Source: Candidatus Hodarchaeota archaeon
Lineage (GTDB): Archaea; Asgardarchaeota; Heimdallarchaeia; Hodarchaeales; Hodarchaeaceae
Reading direction: 5' to 3'
Length of the DNA stretch: 24,000 nucleotides
NCBI GenBank assembly: GCA_048886525.1
Contig: JBHLKP010000002.1
Span: 58,575-82,574 of the forward strand
The first letter of the stretch is position 1. Every line of letters starts with the position of its first letter. Positions 9,911-16,708 of this stretch are shown here, one piece after another. A model generated the notes under the pieces. It saw only the letters and a list, made by a program, of their open reading frames with translations, did not search any database and was not told the DNA's origin. The position numbers were made by a program, and so were the translations under genes.

Positions 9911-10576
9911 ATGCAAAAAAATAAGAAATTAATCCATCTTTCAAATAAATCTCTAATTGCTTTCGATTTAGATGGGACATTAACGATTAGCCGCTCTTCT
10001 TGGGAAGATATTCACAAATACTTTGGTACTTGGGAGAGTCACGGTAAAGTGATTTTGCAGCAGTTCTTACGAGGAGAACTCACATATGAAGAATTTGATA
10101 AGAAAGATGCAGAAGTGTGGATTGGCCGTACAAAAGTAGAATATATGGCTGCTCTTGAAACAATCAAATTTAGAGAAGGGATTGATGAATTAATTACTTT
10201 TCTAAAAGAAAGAAGATGTCTATTGGCATTAATATCGATGGGACTGAAAGATATTGTTGAAAGGGTTGCAAAAAAATATGCTTTTGATTATTGGATAGGA
10301 AATGAGCTGATATGGAATAACGGATTAATCACTGGTGAAGTAAAAATAAATGTTGGGTGGAAAGAGAAAGGGTTGATCTTAACAGATATCCTTGAACGAT
10401 TTAAAATTCCTGCTCAGAATTCTATTGCAATTGGGGATTCAACTGCAGATATTGATATGTTTGAAACTGCGGGAGTTTCAATAGCTATTGGTACTAGTTC
10501 AGAACAAGTAACAAAAGCAGCAGATTTTGTTTGTAAAACTGAAAATTTGAGCGAAATAATCACTTTTTTCGCTTAA
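9911..10576 (+). CDS. HAD-IB family hydrolase (phosphoserine phosphatase-like)
   Basis: HAD motif I FDLDGTLT, a cap region, and motif IV GDSTADIDMFETAGVSIAIG, which resembles SerB GDGANDLPML. Confidence 0.75.
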   Translation: MQKNKKLIHLSNKSLIAFDLDGTLTISRSSWEDIHKYFGTWESHGKVILQQFLRGELTYEEFDKKDAEVWIGRTKVEYMAALETIKFREGIDELITFLKERRCLLALISMGLKDIVERVAKKYAFDYWIGNELIWNNGLITGEVKINVGWKEKGLILTDILERFKIPAQNSIAIGDSTADIDMFETAGVSIAIGTSSEQVTKAADFVCKTENLSEIITFFA

Positions 10577-10587
10577 TTTGGGGAAAT

Positions 10588-11265
10588 TTATTTCATTTTA
10601 AGATAGTGGTGAAGAATTGCATTCACTTCATTAAGATTGACTTCCGTTGGTATAAGTGGATGTCCAGCTTCCTCGGCTCTTTCTTCTAATCCTAAATACA
10701 TCGCTTCTGAAACTTCACCACCAACCTCAACAGGAGGGAGAAAAGCTGCTCCCAAATTAGTCTTCGGTTTTATCTCAAAAAGATTTGTTATTATTGTATA
10801 TTCTCTCTGGTGGTCATAAGCTCGTGTTTGAACAAATTTTTCCCTTTTTTGAACATTTCGGACACGTACAACTCTAAGATCAATTCCAGTTCCTAAATTG
10901 TTATCAGAGACTCTTAACCTGCCAGTTATACCTTTAAAAATCTGTATTCCCCATTCAATAGTAGAATAAGCGAGTCTATTTGTGGATGGAGAGTTTTTTG
11001 CAGGTTGAATTGCCTCTAACAGTTCATTTGCTACTCTATCCAGCGTTTTGATTTCAATATGGTTTGATAACTCGTCTAAAGATAGATAAGAATATTTCAA
11101 TGCCATTATAGACGCTTCTAATTTATTAACTAGAGAGTTGAGTTCATTTTTTGATTTAGTTGGCCGAAATCCTAGTTTTAGCTTAAAAGTTTGGCGAATT
11201 CTTTTGATAGCATACTCAGCTACTAATATTACAGGATTTTTATCAGTTAGTACCAATTCTAACAA
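10588..11265 (-). CDS. Archaeal RNA-binding protein with C-terminal EMAP/Trbp111-like tRNA-binding OB fold (COG2517/DUF2110-like)
   Basis: The C-terminal segment LRVVRVRNVQKRE...IITNLFEIKPKTNLGAAFLPPVEVGGEVSEAMYLG follows the tRNA-binding-domain pattern (..v..v..hp..d.l....nl.p.kl.G..S.GM.l). The start is uncertain. TTG at 11265 abuts AGGAG, while TTG at 11256 has better spacing (9 nt). Confidence 0.45.
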   Translation of the reverse strand: MLELVLTDKNPVILVAEYAIKRIRQTFKLKLGFRPTKSKNELNSLVNKLEASIMALKYSYLSLDELSNHIEIKTLDRVANELLEAIQPAKNSPSTNRLAYSTIEWGIQIFKGITGRLRVSDNNLGTGIDLRVVRVRNVQKREKFVQTRAYDHQREYTIITNLFEIKPKTNLGAAFLPPVEVGGEVSEAMYLGLEERAEEAGHPLIPTEVNLNEVNAILHHYLKMK

Positions 11266-11353
11266 CTCCTTTTCAGAAACATAGATTCTTTTTAATAAAC
11301 ATTCACAATTTCGCTCTGATTAATCAATTACCCATTCCTCTTGTGGTAAGGAT

Positions 11354-13075
11354 ATGAAAACACCTAAACCAGTTAAAAACTTTGATTCATTAGAGCCAAC
11401 TGACTTCATTCGAAAAATCATAATGGATGATCTAAAAAAGGATAAGAATTTGCAAGTTCATACTCGTTTTCCTCCTGAACCAAATGGTTTCATCCATATT
11501 GGCCATATGAAAGCAATTAATCTTAATTTTACTGTTGCAGAAGAATTTGGAGGACTTTGTAATTTAAGATTTGACGACACTGATCCAGAAAAAGAAAGTA
11601 TGGAGTATGTAAAATCGATAATTAATGATATTCGATGGATGGGTTATGATTGGGAGGATCGTCTTTATTTCGCCTCAGATTATTTTGAACAATTATATGA
11701 TTTTGCAGTTGCATTAATAAAAGCTGGGAAGGCTTATGTCTGTGATTTAAGCGTAGATGAAATTAAAGCGCAACGTGGAACATTAACTGAACCAGGGATA
11801 GATAGTCCTTATCGTAATCGCTCTGTAGAAGAAAATCTAGAATTATTTGAAGCAATGAAAAATGGTGACTTCAATGAAGGCTCACGTGTTTTAAGAGCTA
11901 AAATAGATATGAATTCACCAAATTTATTATTGCGAGATCCAGTCATGTACCGTATAAAAGAAGTTCCACATTATAGAAGAGGAACCGATTGGATTATCTT
12001 TCCTTCATATGATTTCACGCATGGACAAAGTGATGTAATTGAGGGAATCACCCATTCACTCTGTTCTCTTGAATTCGAAACTCATAGACCCCTCTATGAT
12101 TGGTTTATCGGTCAATTATTAGAAATTGGAGTTATTGATCATCGTTCACGTCAATATGAGTTTTCACGTCTAAATTTAACTTATACAGTGATGAGTAAGC
12201 GTAAATTATTGCAATTGATTGAAGAAAAGTATGTTAGTGGTTGGGATGATCCCAGAATGCCAACAATATCAGGGATCCGAAGAAGAGGTTATCCTCCTAA
12301 AGCCATTAGGAATTTTCTTAACCGTGTAGGAATTTCAAAACGTGAAAATTATATCGATTTCGGTCTATTAGAATCTTGTGTGAGAGAAGAGTTGGATAAG
12401 GTCTGTCCGAGAGTCATGGGTATTATAAGACCATTAAAAATAATTATCGACAATTATCCAGAAGATAAAGTTGAATATCTAAAAGCTAGTAATCATCCGA
12501 AAGAAAAATCAATGGGTACACGAAAACTACCATTTTCTAAGGTTCTATTTATCGAACAAGACGATTTCATGGAACACCCACCAAGAAAATTCTATAGATT
12601 GACTCCTGGACGTGAAATAAGGTTAAGATATGCTTACTACATAAAATGTGAAAGCGTTATTAAGAATGACAATGATGAGATCATCGAAGTTCACTGTACT
12701 TATGATCCAAAAACGAAAGGGGGATATTCACCAGGTGGAAGGAAAGTTAAAGCAACACTGCACTGGTTATCTGCTAAACACGCCATAAAGGCTAAAGTAC
12801 GCTTATATGACAGATTATTTTTGAAAGAAAATCCATTAGAAGAAAAAATATTTACAAAGAGCATTAATACGAATTCATTTGAGGAAATAGATTGTTATAT
12901 TGAGCCAGATTTGAAAAAAGCCAAACAAGGAGACCGATACCAGTTTGAACGATTAGGATATTTTTGTGTTGATTTAGTTGATTCAACGGCTGAAGAATTA
13001 GTTTTCAACCGTACTATCACCCTGCGAGATACTTGGATGAAGATGAAAAAAGCTCAAACATCAAAAAAGAAATGA
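11354..13075 (+). CDS. glnS: Glutamine--tRNA ligase (glutaminyl-tRNA synthetase), bacterial-type architecture
   Basis: Colinear by eye with E. coli GlnS from the N-terminus: [12 protein letters not shown]...[20 protein letters not shown] (HIGH), [70 protein letters not shown] (KMSKS). A C-terminal anticodon-binding beta-barrel region is present (LHWLSA...YQFERLGYF). Confidence 0.93.
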
Positions 13076-13114
13076 TATCCCGAAGAATGAACATGTTTTG
13101 ATACAACAAAATAA

Positions 13115-13186
13115 CAGCCCCGAGCGGATTCGAACCGCTCTTGTTGGATTCAGAGTCCAAAGTGCTAACCGCTACACCACGGGGCT
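13115..13186 (-). tRNA. tRNA-Gln (anticodon CUG), no intron, no encoded CCA
   Basis: Reverse strand reads AGCCCCG-TG-GTGT-AGCGGTTA-GCAC-T-TTGGA-CTCTGAA-TCCAA-CAAG-AGCGG-TTCGAAT-CCGCT-CGGGGCT-G. It has a full cloverleaf with a 7-bp acceptor stem (A1:U72), GG in the D-loop, a TTCGAAT T-loop and the CTG anticodon at 13153..13151. It is a GC-rich island in AT-rich DNA. Confidence 0.92.
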
Positions 13187-13236
13187 TAATCATGCCTTCT
13201 AATTCTATCTTTTAACTAAAGTTATAGGAAAATTAA

Positions 13237-13339
13237 CAGCCCCGCCCCGATTCGAACGGGGGTTTCCGACCGATTCGATTCTATCGAACCTGTCTTCGGA
13301 GTCAAAGTCCGAAATGATAGTCCTCTACACTACGGGGCT
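13237..13339 (-). tRNA. tRNA-Gln (anticodon UUG) interrupted by a 30-nt intron after the anticodon arm (predicted position 45/46)
   Basis: Reverse strand reads AGCCCCG-TA-GTGT-AGAGGACTA-TCAT-T-TCGGA-CTTTGAC-TCCGA-AG[ACAGGTTCGATAGAATCGAATCGGTCGGAA]AC-CCCCG-TTCGAAT-CGGGG-CGGGGCT-G. The anticodon TTG is at 13305..13303. The acceptor stem and G73 are identical to the neighbouring tRNA-Gln(CUG). Confidence 0.85.
13264..13293 (-). other. Predicted tRNA intron (30 nt) with bulge-helix-bulge splice motif
   Basis: Central 4-bp helix is CCGA (exon nt 40-43) : UCGG (intron 3' end). It is flanked by 3-nt bulges AGA (5' strand) and AAA (3' strand). The inner intron helix is C-A-GGUUCGAU / AUCGAAUC-G-G, 10 positions with one A.G mismatch and an AGA loop. 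Cutting after the second bulge nucleotide gives a mature variable region AGAC. Confidence 0.6.
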
Positions 13340-13471
13340 TTAAATCAGTGTTTTTTCAATTCTTTATCAAGTTTATGTCATTGTTTATTATATTCAACGT
13401 TATAATTGATATCTTCTCTCATAACTCTTTTTCCATTTGTAGAATTCAAAAAATATAATTTCATTTCCCGC

Positions 13472-14167
13472 TCAATGAAGTACTTCCGCAAATGCTCTTA
13501 TAGGCATTGCAGCGACTTTTTTCCCCTTTATTGGCACTGCATAAAATCTAAAATTCTTTCCATGAAGCTTCTTTAGATTTGTTAAATTTTCAACAATTAA
13601 AATATTGTTTTCTAGAAACATCGTATGAGCTGGTCTAGTTAAATCTCTGGAATCATCGATATTGATTGTATCAACTCCTACAAGTTTAATTTTATGCTTC
13701 AGAAGTTTTTTTATGAGTTCTATGGATATAAATGGATACTCGTAATATTTTTCTGTTCCCCAATATTGATCCCAATTGAAATTAAATAAGATTGCTCGAT
13801 TGGATAGATCACTATTTTTAGGAAGTACCTCAACGCCAACTGATTCAAAAGGAGTATATTCACTAACGTCTATAACGATTCCTGATAATATTAACTCATC
13901 TAATTTTAATTGACTTATATCACGTTTCCCTGGAAAACGATGATAAGGAGAATCTAAATAAGTCCCAATAGAAGTCTGAAAAACCATTTCTGTTATTTCA
14001 AATGAGGCTTTTCCTTTATAAATTGGGAGTGATTGGTCATGAGTTAAGAATGGGTAAATTTTTGCAGTATACATTACAATAGATCCGTCTTCATTCCTCA
14101 TTCTAAACCCAGGCATATTATTTTCAAATGTATGACTTAAATCAATATATTTCAAATCGAATCCCAA
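13472..14167 (-). CDS. Cyclase-family protein (kynurenine formamidase/arylformamidase-like fold) with degenerate metal-binding motif
   Basis: N-terminal YIDLSHTF..NMP and the core SIGTYLDSPYH align with the family signature HxGTHxDxPxH, plus VGVDTINID near the C-terminus. The TTG start at 14167 is required to include the conserved IDLSH strand. Confidence 0.65.
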   Translation of the reverse strand: MGFDLKYIDLSHTFENNMPGFRMRNEDGSIVMYTAKIYPFLTHDQSLPIYKGKASFEITEMVFQTSIGTYLDSPYHRFPGKRDISQLKLDELILSGIVIDVSEYTPFESVGVEVLPKNSDLSNRAILFNFNWDQYWGTEKYYEYPFISIELIKKLLKHKIKLVGVDTINIDDSRDLTRPAHTMFLENNILIVENLTNLKKLHGKNFRFYAVPIKGKKVAAMPIRAFAEVLH

Positions 14168-14427
14168 TATCTAGAGAAAGTTAATGTAAGGAATATGTAC
14201 TTTATCAAAGATTCAAATAAACACGAATAAATGAACATAATTAGTAATATAATGGACTATTCTTACTCCTAGAATAAAATTTCAATTAGTAGTTAAAAGT
14301 ATCTTTTGACATATTTTTACGACTTACAGCAAATTATTTTTGAGATCTATTTTATGGATAGATCGATTGAAAACATTTGGGTACTATTCAGATACATTAA
14401 ATATTGGAATTAAAGCATCGTAGGTTC

Positions 14428-15282
14428 CTATGTAAATTTGTAAACATCAATATCAATTACTGGTTTATAACCAATCGTTTGATAGATCTTATTTGACGTT
14501 GGATTTTCTAAATCTGTAAACAAAAAACAGTACTTATTTCCTTCATTTAAAATTGTTTGAATTAATTTTGCTACCAATTCTGTGGCATAACCTTTTCTAC
14601 GGAAGTTAGGTGGAGTATATACGTAATTTATTGTTTAACCATTTTATGTTATATCTGCTTTTTTAGCCATAGTTACTATCTCCCCGTTTACTTTAAGTAG
14701 ATTTACCATATTTCGATTCAGATGTTGGATCATTCGTTTTCGAACATTCTCAACTTCTGATGTTGAAGTATTGGGGAATATTTCCATATAAAGGCTTTAT
14801 TCCATTCACAAATCAATTTCTTTTCAGATTTCGTTGCCTGCTCAAAATTATTTTTGCCTAAAGAACGAGGATTAACTTTATCTAGAAGATAAATCCGTTC
14901 ATTTTTTTCAAGAAAATACTCTTTACTATTTTTTCTAGTCCAAAGTTGAGTTAATTTTAAGGCTCCATTTTTGAATCCAACAATCCCTAGAATTTTCATT
15001 CTTTTTTTTGATACTGTATTAACCAGCACTGGAATCGTATTCATATCATTATTATATGAAATAATTTTTATATGGAGGTTATTGAATATATATGAGCTTC
15101 AAAACATTATCATCGGTCACTGTTAGCAATACTGGGAACTCAGTATCGCTGTAAGCTTGGTAATTTTGCTTTAGAGTATTTAAAATACCAAAGAGAAGAT
15201 AATTTTCAGGTTCTTTTATGATTAAGAAAGAATAACATAAATTAATTAATTTTTTTACATTAGCATGAAAACTGGCCTTCAT
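14428..15282 (-). pseudogene. Decayed GNAT-family N-acetyltransferase gene (at least 3 in-frame TAA stops and at least 2 frameshifts)
   Basis: Three reverse-strand pieces belong to one GNAT-type protein. Piece 1 is MKASFHANVKKLINLCYSFLIIKEPENYLLFGIL...LIYIQ*PPYKNYFI** (15282 downwards, GGAGG upstream). Piece 2, frameshifted, is MNTIPVLVNTVSKKRMKILGIVGF...WNKAFIW (15044..14730). Piece 3, shifted again, is EVENVRKRMIQHLNRNMVNLLKVNGEIVTMAKKADIT*NG*TINYVYTPPNFRRKGYATELVAKLIQTILNEGNKYCFLFTDLENPTSNKIYQTIGYKPV, ending at the TAG at 14430..14428. This last piece holds the acetyl-CoA-binding motif RRKGYA. Confidence 0.7.
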
Positions 15283-15352
15283 CCTTTTTCCTCCCAGACC
15301 TATTTTCACTGATTATCTTGAAAATAAACTAATTATTAATTAGGGGTCTTGA

Positions 15353-16408
15353 TTACTGGATATCGACTATTCCTTCAGCGGTTAATCCAAATATGGCTTC
15401 ATTTTCAGGTAATAGAGGGCTATCAACGACTCTAGCAATTCGGCGCTCTCCTTTAGATTTACGAAGATAAACCCGAGTCTGAGCAGCATGAGCGACTATA
15501 TGACCACCTACTGGAGCCGTGGGATCACCAAAAAATTGATCAGGTTTAGCATGAACCTGATTAGTGACAATTACAGCTAAATTTCCTATTTCTGCTGCTC
15601 GAAGAATTGTATGTATATGCTGATTTAGCTTTTGTTGGCGAGCAGCTAATGTTCCTCTCCCTACATATTCAGCTCTAAAATGAGAAATCAACGAGTCAAC
15701 TATAAGCAATTTCACATTCTCTGTTGGTAAATAATCTTTAACCATCTTTTCGACAAGAACCATTTGGTGATCGCTATTATGAGCTCGGCCATGTAGTATA
15801 TTCTCTAGAACCATATCTTCGTTAAGATCATCCTTCCATCGTGCTGCCATAGTAAGTATTCGTTCTGGCCGGAATGTTCCTTCGCTATCGACGTATATTA
15901 CTTTGGGAAAATTATCCTTATCACGTAATCCTCCTTTATCGCGAGGTAATTGAACAGTTACACAGAGTTGATGAGCTAATTGGGTTTTTCCTGTTCTAAA
16001 TTCACCATAAAGTTCTGTTACAGCCCCAGTTTCAATTCCACCTCCAAATAATTCATCTAATGTAGCACTACCTGTTGTAATTTTCTCTAGTTCTCTTCTA
16101 CGTTCTAAAACTTTTTTTGCAGTTTCAAAATCGATATCTAGAGCTTCTCTAGCTGCTTCAATTATTTTTTGTACCGTTTTTTCACCCATTCCTCCAATAG
16201 AGGCTAATTCTCCTATAGAAACTGTTGCTATTGATTCTAATGTAGAAAAACCAGCTTCAACTAATTTTGATGCAGTAGTAGGACCAATACCAGGTAAGTC
16301 AGTTATTGAATTTACTTTTTTACCTTGCTTACTACCTAGATTGGAATATTTTTCATTTTTTTCCTTGGTAGGTTCTTCAGTTGTATCAGCTTTTTTCTTA
16401 GGTGTCAT
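15353..16408 (-). CDS. radA: DNA repair and recombination protein RadA
   Basis: A Lys/Glu-rich N-terminal tail is followed by a helix-hairpin-helix domain (LPGIGPTTASKLVEAGFSTLESIA...GMGEKTVQKIIEAAREAL). Walker A is GEFRTGKTQ and Walker B is LLIVDS. NQV...GGHIVAHAAQTRVYLRK is typical of RadA/Rad51. Confidence 0.95.
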   Translation of the reverse strand: MTPKKKADTTEEPTKEKNEKYSNLGSKQGKKVNSITDLPGIGPTTASKLVEAGFSTLESIATVSIGELASIGGMGEKTVQKIIEAAREALDIDFETAKKVLERRRELEKITTGSATLDELFGGGIETGAVTELYGEFRTGKTQLAHQLCVTVQLPRDKGGLRDKDNFPKVIYVDSEGTFRPERILTMAARWKDDLNEDMVLENILHGRAHNSDHQMVLVEKMVKDYLPTENVKLLIVDSLISHFRAEYVGRGTLAARQQKLNQHIHTILRAAEIGNLAVIVTNQVHAKPDQFFGDPTAPVGGHIVAHAAQTRVYLRKSKGERRIARVVDSPLLPENEAIFGLTAEGIVDIQ

Positions 16409-16708
16409 TGTTTCGCCAACTCAGATCAGAGATGGATACATAGATTTATCAAAAACTATATTTTATTTGAATCCAATAGCTCCTTAAATCAATTTTGCTT
16501 TTTCGCTTTTTAGTAAAAATTTAACGGTAATTTTAACTTCTCCTTGAATTAGGATATTTACAATTTTAAGTATTAATGTCATTAAAATCTAGTATTTTCT
16601 TATTAATACAAAAATCCTTTTATTATTATTTCTTAGATATTTATTAGTATATCATTTGCATATTTAATGTAACTTCCTGTTGAAGAAAACGACATAAAGG
16701 GATCGAAC

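What the first reader, a model, noticed from the sequence alone, without database searches (positions are those of the whole stretch)
10588..13339. Bacterial-architecture GlnRS clustered with both tRNA-Gln isoacceptors and an EMAP-domain tRNA-binding protein in an archaeal genome
Seen in sequence:
- A 573-aa ORF is colinear with E. coli GlnS from residue ~15 on (HIGH, VMSKR and several long identical blocks). It has no eukaryote-type appended N-terminal domain.
- Convergent, 39 nt past its stop, lie tRNA-Gln(CUG) and tRNA-Gln(UUG). Together they decode both Gln codons.
- The two tRNAs share an identical acceptor stem (A1:U72, G2:C71), G10 and a G73 discriminator.
- Divergent, 88 bp upstream, is a protein whose C-terminus looks like an EMAP/Trbp111 tRNA-binding OB fold.
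- The flanking genes are archaeal (RadA, RIO2, BHB intron, class III signal peptides).

Established knowledge:
- Archaea as a rule lack GlnRS. They make Gln-tRNAGln with a non-discriminating GluRS plus the GatDE amidotransferase.
- GatDE reads the archaeal A1:U72 pair.
- The E. coli GlnRS identity set includes G73, G2:C71, G10 and the anticodon.
- EMAP-type domains act as tRNA-delivery cofactors for aaRSs (Arc1p, Trbp111).

Inference: this may be a self-contained direct-glutaminylation module (enzyme, both substrates and a possible tRNA-binding cofactor). It could have been acquired horizontally or be a lineage-specific replacement of the transamidation route.
Basis: partly seen in the sequence, partly recalled or inferred. 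Interest (0 to 1): 0.7.

Follow-up and report, generated by a model that had tools for sequence, protein, structure and literature searches.

The report
Archaeal GlnRS linked to retuned tRNA-Gln
An Asgard archaeon, a group long said to lack this enzyme, carries a bacterial-type glutaminyl-tRNA synthetase gene next to both glutamine tRNA genes; those tRNAs have the bacterial-style G73 discriminator base, and the same arrangement arose separately in Thermoplasmatota archaea.

Summary
The window comes from a Candidatus Hodarchaeota (Asgard) MAG. It holds a complete bacterial-type GlnRS gene (11354-13075). Tail to tail with it, 39 nt past the stop, lie tRNA-Gln(CUG) and an intron-bearing tRNA-Gln(UUG). 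Both tRNAs have A1:U72, G2:C71, G10 and G73.

- glnS, then tRNA-Gln(CUG), then tRNA-Gln(UUG) recurs in 8 of 10 Asgard glnS loci, in unrelated gene neighbourhoods.
- A separately acquired Thermoplasmatota GlnRS is flanked by both isoacceptors.
- None of 79 bacterial glnS loci has both.
- 19 of 20 glnS-linked archaeal tRNA-Gln genes carry G73, against 10 of 54 in a metagenome sample.
- Asp235, the residue that reads the acceptor stem in E. coli, is usually replaced.

The cofactor part fails. The 225-aa protein does have a Trbp111-like OB fold. However, it belongs to a conserved RadA / COG2517-like / HAD backbone, into which the glnS-tRNA segment was inserted.

The gene came from bacteria: the Asgard clade has 94% bootstrap support and nests among bacterial sequences. 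Whether gatDE persists in the genome could not be tested. Reviews still state that archaea lack GlnRS.

The parts
11354..13075 (+). glnS: bacterial-type glutaminyl-tRNA synthetase, 573 aa, with HIGH at residues 48-51 and VMSKR at 279-283
   Evidence: TIGR00440 scores 710 bits against a cut-off of 426. The three Pfam domains PF00749, PF03950 and PF20974 are present. PDB matches: 5bnz 692 bits, E. coli 661 bits. Glutamine-pocket residues R30, Y211, Q255 and C229 and anticodon readers R341, R402, R410, Q517 and R520 are conserved; the Asp235 equivalent is Thr.
13115..13186 (-). tRNA-Gln(CUG), 72 nt, with A1:U72, G2:C71, C3:G70, G10 and G73; no encoded CCA
   Evidence: ARAGORN; Rfam RF00005 at 62.1 bits; sequence read directly.
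13237..13339 (-). tRNA-Gln(UUG) precursor gene, 103 nt, with the same acceptor stem and G73; it contains an intron
   Evidence: Rfam RF00005 at 46.3 bits, with a 31-nt insertion after position 44/45. Sequence read directly. The intron-less orthologue in L088 has the same AGAC variable loop.
13264..13293 (-). 30-nt non-canonical tRNA intron at position 45/46, with a relaxed bulge-helix-bulge motif
   Evidence: The 4-bp helix H pairs C41-A44 with U71-G74, between 3-nt bulges AGA and AAA. Cutting after the second bulge nucleotide gives a 73-nt tRNA (and manual model). In L225 the G43:C72 pair becomes U43:A72, both bulges are conserved, and h' is a helix of unrelated sequence.
11266..15352 (.). 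Roughly 4.1-kb segment (glnS, two tRNA-Gln genes, a cyclase/arylformamidase-like gene, orf104) that is present here but absent from otherwise collinear relatives
   Evidence: tblastn of all window ORFs against L090 and L091 shows both flanks collinear. RadA is 79% and AAA_17 84% identical, and T2SSE is 91-94% identical. glnS, the cyclase gene and orf104 are absent (gene tables). No flanking repeats were found.
10588..11265 (-). Neighbouring backbone gene, not part of the unit: a COG2517/PH0536-family protein with an N-terminal helical domain and a C-terminal Trbp111-like OB fold
   Evidence: PF18489 scores 29.9 bits, below threshold. PDB 2e8g is matched. 14 of 28 family members hit PF01588. 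AlphaFold2 pLDDT is 95. Foldseek matches 2e8g, 3ers, 8vtz, 5h34 and 2cwp. Synteny in L090 and L091 places it in the backbone.
13472..14167 (-). Cyclase / arylformamidase-like gene, a passenger in the inserted segment
   Evidence: PF04199 at 86.6 bits; TIGR03035 below threshold. It is present next to the tRNAs in L225 only and absent from the other Asgard glnS loci.
14730..15044 (-). orf104, an uncharacterised ORF within the inserted segment
   Evidence: No Pfam or NCBIfam hit. Absent from L090 and L091.

Best explanation
This is a working direct-glutaminylation unit in an archaeon.

- A GlnRS of bacterial origin charges two archaeal tRNA-Gln isoacceptors with glutamine, with no need for the GluRS/GatDE detour (inferred).
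- The enzyme reads the anticodon with the same residues as E. coli GlnRS (conservation shown).
- It is expected to open the weak first base pair, here the native archaeal A1:U72 (inferred from the E. coli mechanism).
- It relies on a G73 discriminator. The tRNAs have acquired G73 in place of the usual archaeal A73 (shown).
- The residue that reads G3:C70 in E. coli, Asp235, is replaced by Thr, matching the archaeal C3:G70 pair (correlation shown, causation inferred).
- Enzyme and tRNAs work only as a matched pair, so their genes stay together and move as a block. That is why the block sits in different neighbourhoods in different genomes (inferred from conserved linkage).
- In this lineage the block was dropped between RadA and a housekeeping tRNA-binding-protein gene (shown by synteny).
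- Not shown: aminoacylation activity, and whether GatDE has been lost.
For: Enzyme integrity
- The glnS equivalog HMM is passed; the archaeal gltX model is not (346 bits against a cut-off of 402).
- Glutamine-pocket residues R30, Y211, Q255 and C229 are invariant in 24 of 24 Asgard enzymes.
- Anticodon readers R341, R402, R410, Q517 and R520 are also invariant.

Linkage
- Both isoacceptors, always in the order CUG then UUG, lie 29-60 nt from the glnS stop in the window, L082 and L085 (29-39 nt in the window, L085 and L088).
- In L225 they lie about 130 nt away, in L239 about 600 nt, and in L083 and L087 1.3-2.8 kb away.
- The protein-coding neighbours are unrelated between these loci.
- L081 and L086 lack the pair. 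L086 is cut about 2 kb beyond glnS by the contig end.

Control
- None of 79 bacterial glnS loci has both isoacceptors; 5 have one.

Convergence
- The Thermoplasmatota GlnRS never groups with the Asgard clade (0 of 100 bootstraps; the Asgard clade has 94%).
- Yet it is flanked by tRNA-Gln(CUG) and tRNA-Gln(UUG) on the same strand in L054 and in the closed genome CP070712 (L242, GlnRS 74% identical to L054), again with A1:U72 and G73.
- L054's tRNAs are closer to A73 tRNAs (0.87 identity) than to any Asgard G73 tRNA (0.79).

Discriminator base
- 19 of 20 glnS-linked archaeal tRNA-Gln genes have G73.
- In a metagenome sample of A1:U72 tRNA-Gln genes with the same acceptor stem, 10 of 54 have G73. 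Fisher's exact test gave p = 6e-8 on the earlier 15 of 16 count.
- Archaeal tRNA-Gln normally has A73 (PMC9499178).
- Neither E. coli nor yeast GlnRS charges archaeal tRNA-Gln (PMC2330236).

Residue 235
- It is Thr, Ser or Asn in 20 of 24 Asgard enzymes and Asn in both Thermoplasmatota enzymes.
- It is Asp in 33 of 51 bacterial enzymes.
- One bacterial enzyme whose neighbouring tRNA has C3:G70 (L039) also has Thr.

Origin and age
- The Asgard clade nests among bacterial-type sequences; E. coli and the outgroups are excluded at 85%.
- G+C matches the flanks, so the transfer is old.
Against: - No biochemical data exist for any of these enzymes or tRNAs.
- gatD/gatE, GluRS and any further tRNA-Gln genes in the genome could not be examined, so replacement of the indirect route is not shown.
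- G73 is not absolute. In the closest relative, L088, the linked CUG isoacceptor has A73.
- Several G73 tRNA-Gln genes in the metagenome sample have no glnS on the DNA fetched, for example L199 and L232.
- Four Asgard enzymes keep Asp235.
- L081 has glnS with no tRNA within 10 kb.
- The statistics count loci, not independent evolutionary events.
- The tree is neighbour-joining with approximate rooting. The giant-virus outgroup sequences are not clearly eukaryote-type.
Confidence: 0.72

Rival explanations
1. Two parallel glutamine-charging systems coexist. GlnRS serves the linked G73 tRNAs. The ancestral non-discriminating GluRS plus GatDE still serve other A73 tRNA-Gln genes elsewhere in the genome. 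The cassette then adds capacity or is used conditionally, rather than being a replacement.
For: - All linked tRNAs keep A1:U72, the pair that GatDE recognises (PMC2330236).
- L087 carries a third tRNA-Gln-like gene with A73 about 3.4 kb from the linked pair.
- L088 and L237 have mixed pairs, one A73 and one G73.
- Many bacteria keep both direct and indirect routes (PMC8762117).
Against: - gatD and gatE were never observed here, in either direction.
- The third L087 tRNA has an abnormal anticodon loop (CCUUGGA, with C33 and G37), which looks more like a decaying gene.
- A1:U72 is also a weak pair of the kind GlnRS needs, so keeping it does not require GatDE.
Confidence: 0.25
2. The divergently transcribed COG2517-like/EMAP-like protein is a dedicated tRNA-delivery cofactor for this GlnRS, and the two share the 88-bp promoter region.
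For: - The protein has a confident Trbp111-type OB fold.
- The divergent adjacency is kept in the window's sub-clade: the window and L088 directly, and the P0002/P0122 and P0006/P0125 pairs inferred from shared contig lengths, with consecutive accessions for P0006/P0125. In L225 the gene lies on the same side but about 1.8 kb away.
- Some bacterial GlnRS proteins are fused to a PF01588 domain (708-aa proteins). A GlnRS plus Trbp111 partnership therefore has precedent.
Against: - The family is archaea-wide, including Pyrococcus and Desulfurococcales, which are reported to lack GlnRS.
- L090 and L091 keep the gene in the same RadA...HAD...AAA_17 backbone with no glnS there.
- More distant Asgard glnS loci have no such neighbour: L081, L082, L083, L085, L086, L087.
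- The Thermoplasmatota units lack it.
Confidence: 0.07
3. The linkage is a by-product of integration, not of selection. Foreign DNA often integrates at tRNA genes, so a bacterial glnS simply landed beside a pre-existing tRNA-Gln pair and has not yet been separated from it.
For: - tRNA genes are common integration sites (general knowledge).
- The site between RadA and the COG2517-like gene varies between relatives: 43 bp in L090, but a rubredoxin gene plus an ORF in L091.
- L087 has a TnpB-like gene and a resolvase gene nearby.
Against: - The linkage survives at 65-72% GlnRS identity while every other neighbour has changed.
- It arose twice with different geometry: convergent in Asgard, same-strand sandwich in Thermoplasmatota.
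- The tRNAs move together with glnS: L090 and L091 have no tRNA-Gln at the empty site.
- The window shows no integrase gene or att-like repeats.
- This model does not explain the G73 enrichment.
Confidence: 0.08

Closest known systems
Bacterial glutaminyl-tRNA synthetase with tRNA-Gln (E. coli GlnRS:tRNA-Gln, PDB 1gtr/1qtq; P. aeruginosa 5bnz)
   Same: - Same three-domain architecture with no appended N- or C-terminal domain.
- 52.5% identity to E. coli over 554 aligned columns.
- HIGH and VMSKR motifs, the glutamine pocket and the anticodon-reading residues are conserved.
- The tRNAs share G73, G2:C71, G10, a YUG anticodon, A37 and a weak first base pair.
   Different: - The host is an archaeon.
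- The tRNAs are archaeal in body: A1:U72 rather than U1:A72, C3:G70 rather than G3:C70, G15, and no encoded CCA. One has a bulge-helix-bulge intron.
- Asp235 is Thr.
- Both isoacceptor genes sit beside glnS. That was seen in none of 79 bacterial loci.
Archaeal indirect route: non-discriminating GluRS plus GatDE acting on tRNA-Gln (M. thermautotrophicus transamidosome)
   Same: - Same end product, Gln-tRNA-Gln.
- The tRNAs keep the A1:U72 pair that GatDE recognises (PMC2330236).
   Different: - Here a dedicated GlnRS is present.
- The tRNAs have G73 instead of the archaeal A73 (PMC9499178).
- Whether GatDE is still encoded is unknown.
Thermoplasmatota unit: tRNA-Gln(CUG), glnS, tRNA-Gln(UUG) (L054; CP070712 = L242)
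   Same: - A bacterial-type GlnRS in an archaeon, beside both isoacceptors.
- The tRNAs have A1:U72 and G73, and residue 235 is not Asp.
   Different: - Independent acquisition: it groups with the Asgard clade in 0 of 100 bootstraps.
- All three genes are on one strand, with spacers of 28-79 nt, so the arrangement looks like an operon. The Asgard arrangement is convergent instead.
Trbp111 / EMAP II / Arc1p / MetRS C-terminal tRNA-binding OB domains (PF01588), and PH0536 (PDB 2e8g)
   Same: - The 225-aa neighbour has the same OB barrel: 3ers and 8vtz give TM about 0.60 normalised to the target, with rmsd 2.6-3.5 Å.
- It shares the whole two-domain architecture of PH0536 (TM 0.87).
   Different: - This protein itself does not reach PF01588 by sequence; only 14 of 28 family members do.
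- It carries an extra N-terminal helical domain (PF18489).
- It is a syntenic backbone gene, not tied to glnS.
Engineered orthogonal aaRS/tRNA pairs and other natural linked pairs (for example pylS-pylT)
   Same: An enzyme and its matched tRNA are encoded side by side. They behave as a transferable unit because the enzyme needs tRNA identity elements that the host's standard tRNA lacks.
   Different: - There is no new amino acid and no codon reassignment.
- The pair re-implements a standard codon assignment by a different route.
- Orthogonality to the host GluRS/GatDE system is untested.

Membership tests
Glutaminyl-tRNA synthetase (class Ib; TIGR00440 glnS) | Equivalog HMM score above the curated cut-off, and better than the GluRS models | tested here: met
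   TIGR00440 scores 710 bits against a cut-off of 426. Archaeal gltX TIGR00463 scores 346 bits, below its cut-off of 402.
Glutaminyl-tRNA synthetase (class Ib; TIGR00440 glnS) | Class I signature motifs HIGH and KMSKS, with the catalytic domain and two beta-barrel anticodon-binding domains | tested here: met
   HIGH at residues 48-51 and VMSKR at 279-283. PF00749, PF03950 and PF20974 are all matched full-length.
Glutaminyl-tRNA synthetase (class Ib; TIGR00440 glnS) | Glutamine-pocket residues (E. coli R30, Y211, Q255, C229) and anticodon readers (R341, R402, R410, Q517, R520) | tested here: met
   All are conserved in the window protein and in 24 of 24 Asgard homologues. The roles of these residues are recalled from the E. 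coli structural literature.
Glutaminyl-tRNA synthetase (class Ib; TIGR00440 glnS) | Specific glutaminylation of tRNA-Gln | not testable with these tools
   Needs an aminoacylation assay.
Bacterial-type (as opposed to eukaryotic) GlnRS | No appended N-terminal domain, and phylogenetic placement within the bacterial radiation | tested here: met
   The alignment to the human enzyme starts at its residue 262. The Asgard clade (94% bootstrap) sits inside the bacterial-type sequences, with E. coli and the outgroups excluded at 85%. The rooting is approximate.
E. coli-type GlnRS tRNA identity set | G73 discriminator, G2:C71, G10, YUG anticodon and A37 | tested here: met
   Read directly from both genes.
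E. coli-type GlnRS tRNA identity set | U1:A72, G3:C70 and U38 | tested here: not met
   The tRNAs have A1:U72 (still a weak pair), C3:G70, and A38 (CUG isoacceptor) or C38 (UUG isoacceptor). The enzyme's Asp235 equivalent is Thr.
Canonical archaeal (GatDE-route) tRNA-Gln | A1:U72 together with an A73 discriminator | tested here: not met
   A1:U72 is present, but position 73 is G in both genes. In a metagenome sample with the same acceptor stem, 44 of 55 genes have A73.
Canonical archaeal (GatDE-route) tRNA-Gln | gatD and gatE encoded in the same genome | not tested
   No seed sequence was available and there was no whole-genome access. No gatD or gatE was seen in the 24-kb window.
Trbp111/EMAP tRNA-binding domain (PF01588), for the 225-aa protein | OB-fold barrel superposable on Trbp111 or the MetRS C-terminal domain | tested here: met
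   Foldseek hits at probability 1.00 (TM normalised to the target): 3ers (0.60), 8vtz (0.60), 5h34_B (0.61) and 2cwp (0.64). The model has pLDDT 95.
Trbp111/EMAP tRNA-binding domain (PF01588), for the 225-aa protein | Sequence match to the PF01588 model | tested here: inconclusive
   The window protein gives no hit. 14 of 28 family members do, with a best E-value of 1e-8. The family profile matches YgjH and the MetRS C-terminal domain only at E of about 0.06.
aaRS-dedicated tRNA-delivery cofactor (Arc1p-like), for the 225-aa protein | Conserved genomic or physical association with the synthetase | tested here: not met
   It is a backbone gene that is present without glnS in L090 and L091. It is absent from 6 of 10 Asgard glnS loci and from the Thermoplasmatota units.
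Archaeal bulge-helix-bulge tRNA intron | Two 3-nt bulges separated by a 4-bp helix, with excision restoring a standard tRNA | tested here: met
   Helix H pairs C41-A44 with U71-G74, between bulges AGA and AAA. The product is 73 nt with an AGAC variable loop, as in the intron-less L088 gene. A compensatory G:C to U:A change occurs in L225.
Archaeal bulge-helix-bulge tRNA intron | Outer helix h that completes the strict hBHBh' motif | tested here: not met
   No pairing flanks helix H. The bulge-helix-bulge conformer scores -32.2 kcal/mol against -41.9 kcal/mol for the cloverleaf-plus-hairpin MFE. The motif is therefore the relaxed type.
Integrative mobile element | Integrase or recombinase gene and flanking att-like direct repeats | tested here: not met
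   No such genes lie in the window. The only repeats found in 10500-16500 are those between the two tRNAs themselves.

The most novel reading that the evidence does not exclude
The linked glnS and G73 tRNA-Gln genes are a natural orthogonal synthetase/tRNA cassette. It broke the barrier that archaeal tRNA-Gln poses to GlnRS at least twice independently.

In some hosts it may run in parallel with the ancestral GluRS/GatDE system, which would act on A73 tRNA-Gln. One cell would then hold two insulated routes to the same codons.

A still bolder variant is not excluded by my approximately rooted tree. The Heimdall-group clade could be an early branch of the bacterial-type GlnRS lineage rather than a late recipient. 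That would bear on where GlnRS arose relative to eukaryogenesis.
Probability: 0.2. Interest if true: 0.8.

Novelty: new variant of a known kind. Interest (0 to 1): 0.66.

Why it matters
**What the field currently says.** Reviews up to 2022 state that no archaeon has GlnRS. They explain this by the unusual archaeal tRNA-Gln, which E. coli and yeast GlnRS cannot charge (PMC9499178, PMC8762117, PMC2330236).

**What these sequences show.** The barrier has been crossed in at least two archaeal lineages, and the sequences suggest how:
- the discriminator base switched from A73 to G73;
- the native weak A1:U72 pair was kept;
- the enzyme residue that reads the 3:70 pair changed;
- the enzyme and tRNA genes stay physically linked.

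**What it makes testable.** The old hypothesis can now be tested directly with four transcripts and two enzymes. It also offers a natural example of a co-adapted, portable synthetase/tRNA pair, which is relevant to genetic-code engineering.

**Evolutionary context.** One host lineage, Hodarchaeales, is the proposed sister group of eukaryotes. Its GlnRS needs to be placed properly in the debate over the eukaryotic origin of GlnRS. My tree indicates it is a bacterial import, not an ancestor of the eukaryotic enzyme.

Tried and rejected
1. **Genome-contig scan with the GlnRS protein.** I reused the loci as a named bacterial control and outgroup set. It also turned up L054.
2. **Exact look-up of the window GlnRS.** Nothing was on record, although P0001 is 100% identical.
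3. **Eukaryotic outgroup.** Giant-virus GlnRS genes from viral contigs are not clearly eukaryote-type. They score 332 bits to Thermus and 266-290 bits to eukaryotic enzymes. The tree root is therefore only approximate, and I could not obtain real eukaryotic GlnRS or GluRS sequences.
4. **gatD/gatE.**
   - No seed sequence was available from any accessible collection.
   - Literature searches found no gene-content statement for Heimdall-group archaea, and no supplementary files were held for PMC12222021.
   - I considered a synthetic motif query for the last homology search. I rejected it because only the top 120 hits are listed, so the relevant genomes were unlikely to appear.
5. **Strict hBHBh' search.** It did not list the correct motif, because h' has a mismatch after its first pair. 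I built the model by hand and then checked it by covariation.
6. **Mobile-element signatures around the insertion.** None were found.
7. **EMAP cofactor as part of the module.** Rejected on synteny.
8. **Contig chimerism or a bacterial contig.** Rejected:
   - composition is even across the region;
   - archaeal genes lie on both sides;
   - two related contigs are collinear with both flanks;
   - L225 and L088 share the same junctions.

Full report
**1. What is in the window**

- The 24-kb window has even G+C of about 28-41%, with no step at the region of interest.
- Its genes are archaeal: RadA (NF003301, 454 bits), a RIO2-type kinase, and a type IV pilus ATPase with two T2SSF membrane proteins. 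An ABC transporter is also present.
- The 573-aa ORF at 11354..13075 is identical to a protein deposited as glutamine--tRNA ligase of a Candidatus Hodarchaeota archaeon MAG (MFX0084187.1, 94.5-kb contig).
- The host is therefore an Asgard archaeon of the Heimdall group.

**2. The enzyme**

- The ORF passes NCBI's glnS equivalog model (710 bits, cut-off 426). It fails the archaeal GluRS model (346 bits, cut-off 402).
- It has the catalytic domain and both beta-barrel anticodon-binding domains.
- It aligns over its whole length with P. aeruginosa GlnRS (692 bits) and E. coli GlnRS (661 bits).
- Eukaryotic enzymes score about 400-440 bits and match only through their C-terminal bodies.
- It has no eukaryotic N-terminal extension and no YqeY tail.
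- In an alignment with E. coli (52.5% identity), two sets of residues are invariant in all 24 Asgard homologues examined:
  - the glutamine-pocket residues R30, Y211, Q255 and C229;
  - the anticodon-reading residues R341, R402, R410, Q517 and R520.
- The functional roles of these residues are recalled from the E. coli structural literature.

**3. The tRNAs**

- Rfam finds two tRNAs on the minus strand, at 13115..13186 and 13237..13339. ARAGORN finds only the first.
- They are tRNA-Gln(CUG) and tRNA-Gln(UUG).
- Both begin AGCCCCG and end CGGGGCU-G. This gives A1:U72, G2:C71, C3:G70, G10 and G73, with no encoded CCA.
- The first tRNA starts 39 nt after the glnS stop, tail to tail with glnS.

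**4. The intron**

- The UUG gene is 103 nt long. Removing 30 nt (window 13264..13293) gives a 73-nt tRNA. Its AGAC variable loop is identical to that of the intron-less orthologue in L088.
- The excision sites sit in two 3-nt bulges (AGA and AAA), separated by a 4-bp helix.
- In that helix, the 3' strand of the anticodon stem (CCGA) pairs with the intron segment UCGG. An internal hairpin follows (and a manual model).
- The orthologue in L225 carries an intron at the same place. There:
  - exon position G43 has become U, and its intron partner C72 has become A;
  - both bulges are unchanged;
  - the internal helix has an unrelated sequence but still forms 6 bp.
- This is comparative support for a relaxed bulge-helix-bulge intron at non-canonical position 45/46.
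- The outer helix of the strict motif is missing. The bulge-helix-bulge conformer is about 10 kcal/mol less stable than the cloverleaf-plus-hairpin fold.

**5. Is the enzyme-tRNA clustering more than chance?**

I fetched the neighbourhoods of Asgard GlnRS homologues that are 65-79% identical to the window enzyme.

| Locus | Position of the tRNA-Gln pair relative to glnS |
|---|---|
| Window | 39 nt past the stop |
| L082 (closed Heimdall-group genome CP070695) | 60 nt |
| L085 | 29 nt |
| L088 | 36-38 nt |
| L225 | about 130 nt |
| L239 (1.1-kb fragment) | about 600 nt |
| L083 | 2.8 kb, after an inserted NosD-like gene |
| L087 | 1.3 kb, after an inserted kinase-like gene |
| L081 | none within 10 kb |
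| L086 | none; cut by the contig end about 2 kb beyond glnS |

- The order is always glnS, then CUG, then UUG.
- Apart from glnS, these loci share no protein-coding genes with the window, except the close relatives L088 and L225.
- As a control, I scanned 79 bacterial glnS loci with up to 10 kb on each side. None has both isoacceptors and five have one.

**6. A second, independent archaeal case**

- One of the 80 genome hits, L054, is binned as Thermoplasmatota. There glnS lies between tRNA-Gln(CUG) and tRNA-Gln(UUG), all on one strand.
- L054 also holds a TolC-like ORF, so I checked the assignment.
- Its GlnRS belongs to a large clade whose named members are almost all Thermoplasmatota or Thermoplasmatales, one being labelled Methanobacteriota and one Petrotogales. 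The clade includes members on contigs of 1.82 and 1.92 Mb.
- In the 1.82-Mb closed genome CP070712 (L242, GlnRS 74% identical to L054), the same sandwich is present, with spacers of 28 and 65 nt and different neighbours.
- All four Thermoplasmatota tRNAs have A1:U72 and G73.

**7. Phylogeny**

- I built a neighbour-joining tree: 92 sequences, 539 columns, Kimura-corrected distances and 100 bootstraps.
- The 24 Asgard sequences form one clade (94%).
- That clade lies within the bacterial-type sequences. E. coli and the distant outgroups are excluded at 85%.
- L054 never joins the Asgard clade (0 of 100). It sits weakly near Planctomycetes (22%).
- Archaea therefore acquired bacterial-type GlnRS at least twice.
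- Caveats:
  - the bacterial sample is biased toward the best hits;
  - the method is simple;
  - the giant-virus sequences used for rooting are not clearly eukaryote-type.

**8. The discriminator base**

- Reviews give A73 as the archaeal tRNA-Gln discriminator, G73 as the bacterial one and U73 as the eukaryotic one (PMC9499178).
- They also report that E. coli and yeast GlnRS cannot charge archaeal tRNA-Gln, and propose this as the barrier to GlnRS acquisition (PMC2330236).
- I sampled metagenome contigs for tRNA-Gln genes with the same acceptor and D-arm start (69 loci). Of the 55 genes whose ends could be read as A1:U72, 44 have A73 and 11 have G73.
- Three of those 11 G73 genes (one in L225, two in L239) turned out to be glnS-linked.
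- Among glnS-linked genes, 19 of 20 have G73. The exception is the CUG gene of L088.
- Fisher's exact test on an earlier count (15 of 16 against 10 of 54) gave p = 6e-8. It is not corrected for shared ancestry.
- The Thermoplasmatota tRNAs are closer to A73 tRNAs (0.87 identity) than to any Asgard G73 tRNA (0.79). G73 therefore arose more than once.

**9. A matching change in the enzyme**

- E. coli Asp235 contacts the G2:C71 and G3:C70 pairs, and mutations there relax specificity (recalled from the literature).

| Group | Residue at position 235 |
|---|---|
| Asgard (24 enzymes) | Thr 15, Asn 4, Ser 1, Asp 4 |
| Thermoplasmatota (2 enzymes) | Asn in both |
| Bacteria (51 enzymes) | Asp 33, Asn 12, Thr 1 |

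- The archaeal tRNAs have C3:G70.
- One bacterial locus whose neighbouring tRNA-Gln has C3:G70 (L039) also has Thr.
- This suggests co-adaptation, but the sample is small.

**10. The EMAP-like neighbour**

  - The 225-aa protein is a PH0536-family (COG2517-type) protein. JGI annotates relatives as "predicted RNA-binding protein with EMAP domain".
  - Half of the family members reach PF01588.
  - The AlphaFold2 model (pLDDT 95) matches 2e8g overall. Its C-terminal barrel matches Trbp111, the MetRS C-terminal domain and YtpR.
- The functional inference does not hold.
  - L090 and L091 are collinear with the window on both sides. T2SSE is 91-94% identical, AAA_17 is 83-85% and RadA is 78-79%. Their gene order is RadA, COG2517-like gene, HAD, AAA_17.
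  - They have no glnS, tRNA-Gln, cyclase gene or orf104. In L090, RadA is 43 bp from the COG2517-like gene.
  - Window 11266..15352 is therefore an insertion into a conserved backbone (or a deletion in the others).
  - The COG2517-like gene belongs to the backbone. Its family also occurs in Pyrococcus and Desulfurococcales.
- The adjacency to glnS is confined to the window's sub-clade. It is direct in the window and L088. For the P0002/P0122 and P0006/P0125 pairs it is inferred from shared contig lengths, with consecutive accessions for P0006/P0125. In L225 the gene lies on the same side but about 1.8 kb away.
Some bacterial GlnRS proteins are fused to a PF01588 domain, so GlnRS can benefit from such a domain.

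**11. Mechanism proposed**

- Shown:
  - an intact bacterial-type GlnRS;
  - two archaeal-bodied tRNA-Gln genes carrying most of the bacterial identity set;
  - conserved linkage;
  - convergent linkage and G73 in a second lineage.
- Inferred:
  - GlnRS directly glutaminylates these tRNAs;
  - G73, and probably residue 235, are the adaptations that made the imported enzyme usable;
  - because enzyme and tRNAs work only as a matched pair, selection keeps them together and they relocate as a block.
- Open: whether the GluRS/GatDE route has been lost.
  - The retained A1:U72 pair fits either GatDE recognition or the GlnRS need for a weak first pair.
  - A third A73 tRNA-Gln-like gene in L087 and the mixed A73/G73 pairs in L088 and L237 leave room for coexistence.

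**12. Novelty**

- The GlnRS annotation is already public.
- A 2024 preprint mentions GlnRS in Hodarchaeales in passing, as a neighbour of cox genes. None of my eight protein-annotated Asgard loci shows that neighbourhood.
- One essay asserts transfer of GlnRS "to Archaea and Bacteria" (PMC8879553).
- Specialist reviews of 2022 still say no archaeon has GlnRS.
- My full-text searches found no description of archaeal GlnRS, of its linked tRNA genes, or of the G73 switch.
- I therefore rate this as a new variant of a known system, of real interest to the aaRS/tRNA-identity field, and directly testable.

Noticed in passing
window 13264-13293 (-); L225 4037-4138 (-): The tRNA-Gln(UUG) gene carries a 30-nt intron at non-canonical position 45/46. 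The intron's 3' end mimics the 5' strand of the anticodon stem to form the central bulge-helix-bulge helix. Only the window and L225 have the intron; the orthologue in L088 lacks it. ARAGORN misses the gene.
   Followed up: yes
L054 6562-8517; L242 9901-11826: Thermoplasmatota archaea have their own large GlnRS clade, including members on contigs of 1.8-1.9 Mb. There glnS is sandwiched between tRNA-Gln(CUG) and tRNA-Gln(UUG) on one strand, with short spacers that suggest a single transcript.
   Followed up: partly
L089 2863-4989 (P0079; also P0048-P0113): Many 700-708-aa GlnRS proteins, about 65% identical to the window enzyme, carry a C-terminal PF01588 (Trbp111/EMAP) tRNA-binding domain. The one locus examined has a sigma-54 activator as a neighbour, so these are bacterial.
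   Followed up: partly
L087 16505-16577 (-): A third tRNA-Gln-like gene lies 3.4 kb from the linked pair. It has the archaeal A73 discriminator but an abnormal anticodon loop (CCUUGGA, with C33 and G37). It may be a decaying copy of the ancestral GatDE-route tRNA.
   Followed up: no
window 11266-15352 compared with L090 9958-10000 and L091 9130-10000: The gap between RadA and the COG2517-like gene is a variable spot. It is 43 bp in L090. L091 holds a rubredoxin gene plus a 143-aa ORF there. The window holds 4.1 kb (glnS, two tRNAs, a cyclase-like gene and orf104). No repeats or recombinase genes mark the boundaries.
   Followed up: partly
L088 11772-11843; L237 738-886: Some adjacent tRNA-Gln pairs are mixed, one isoacceptor with A73 and the other with G73. 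In L088, the window's close relative, the UUG gene also has G1:U72 instead of A1:U72.
   Followed up: no
Foldseek hit 9a77_B: The OB domain of the 225-aa protein also matches B. subtilis YtpR in an integrative model of a GatB-YtpR complex. This hints that Trbp111-like proteins can partner with the amidotransferase route rather than with GlnRS.
   Followed up: no
L081-L088 gene tables: A 2024 preprint states that GlnRS consistently neighbours coxABC in Hodarchaeales and Kariarchaeaceae. None of the eight Asgard glnS loci with gene tables shows cox genes within 10 kb.
   Followed up: no
L087 48-2197: A TnpB/Cas12f-like gene (OrfB_IS605) and a serine resolvase gene lie about 8 kb upstream of glnS on the contig labelled Thorarchaeota.
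   Followed up: no
L054 55-1356 and 3886-4662: The contig binned as Thermoplasmatota encodes a heliorhodopsin (345 bits) and a sub-threshold TolC-like ORF (128 bits). A TolC-like protein is unexpected in an archaeon.
   Followed up: partly
L092 (E. coli K-12, 696.4-707.8 kb): In E. coli the four tRNA-Gln genes (glnX, glnV, glnW, glnU) lie only about 9 kb from glnS. This is a looser version of the same proximity.
   Followed up: no
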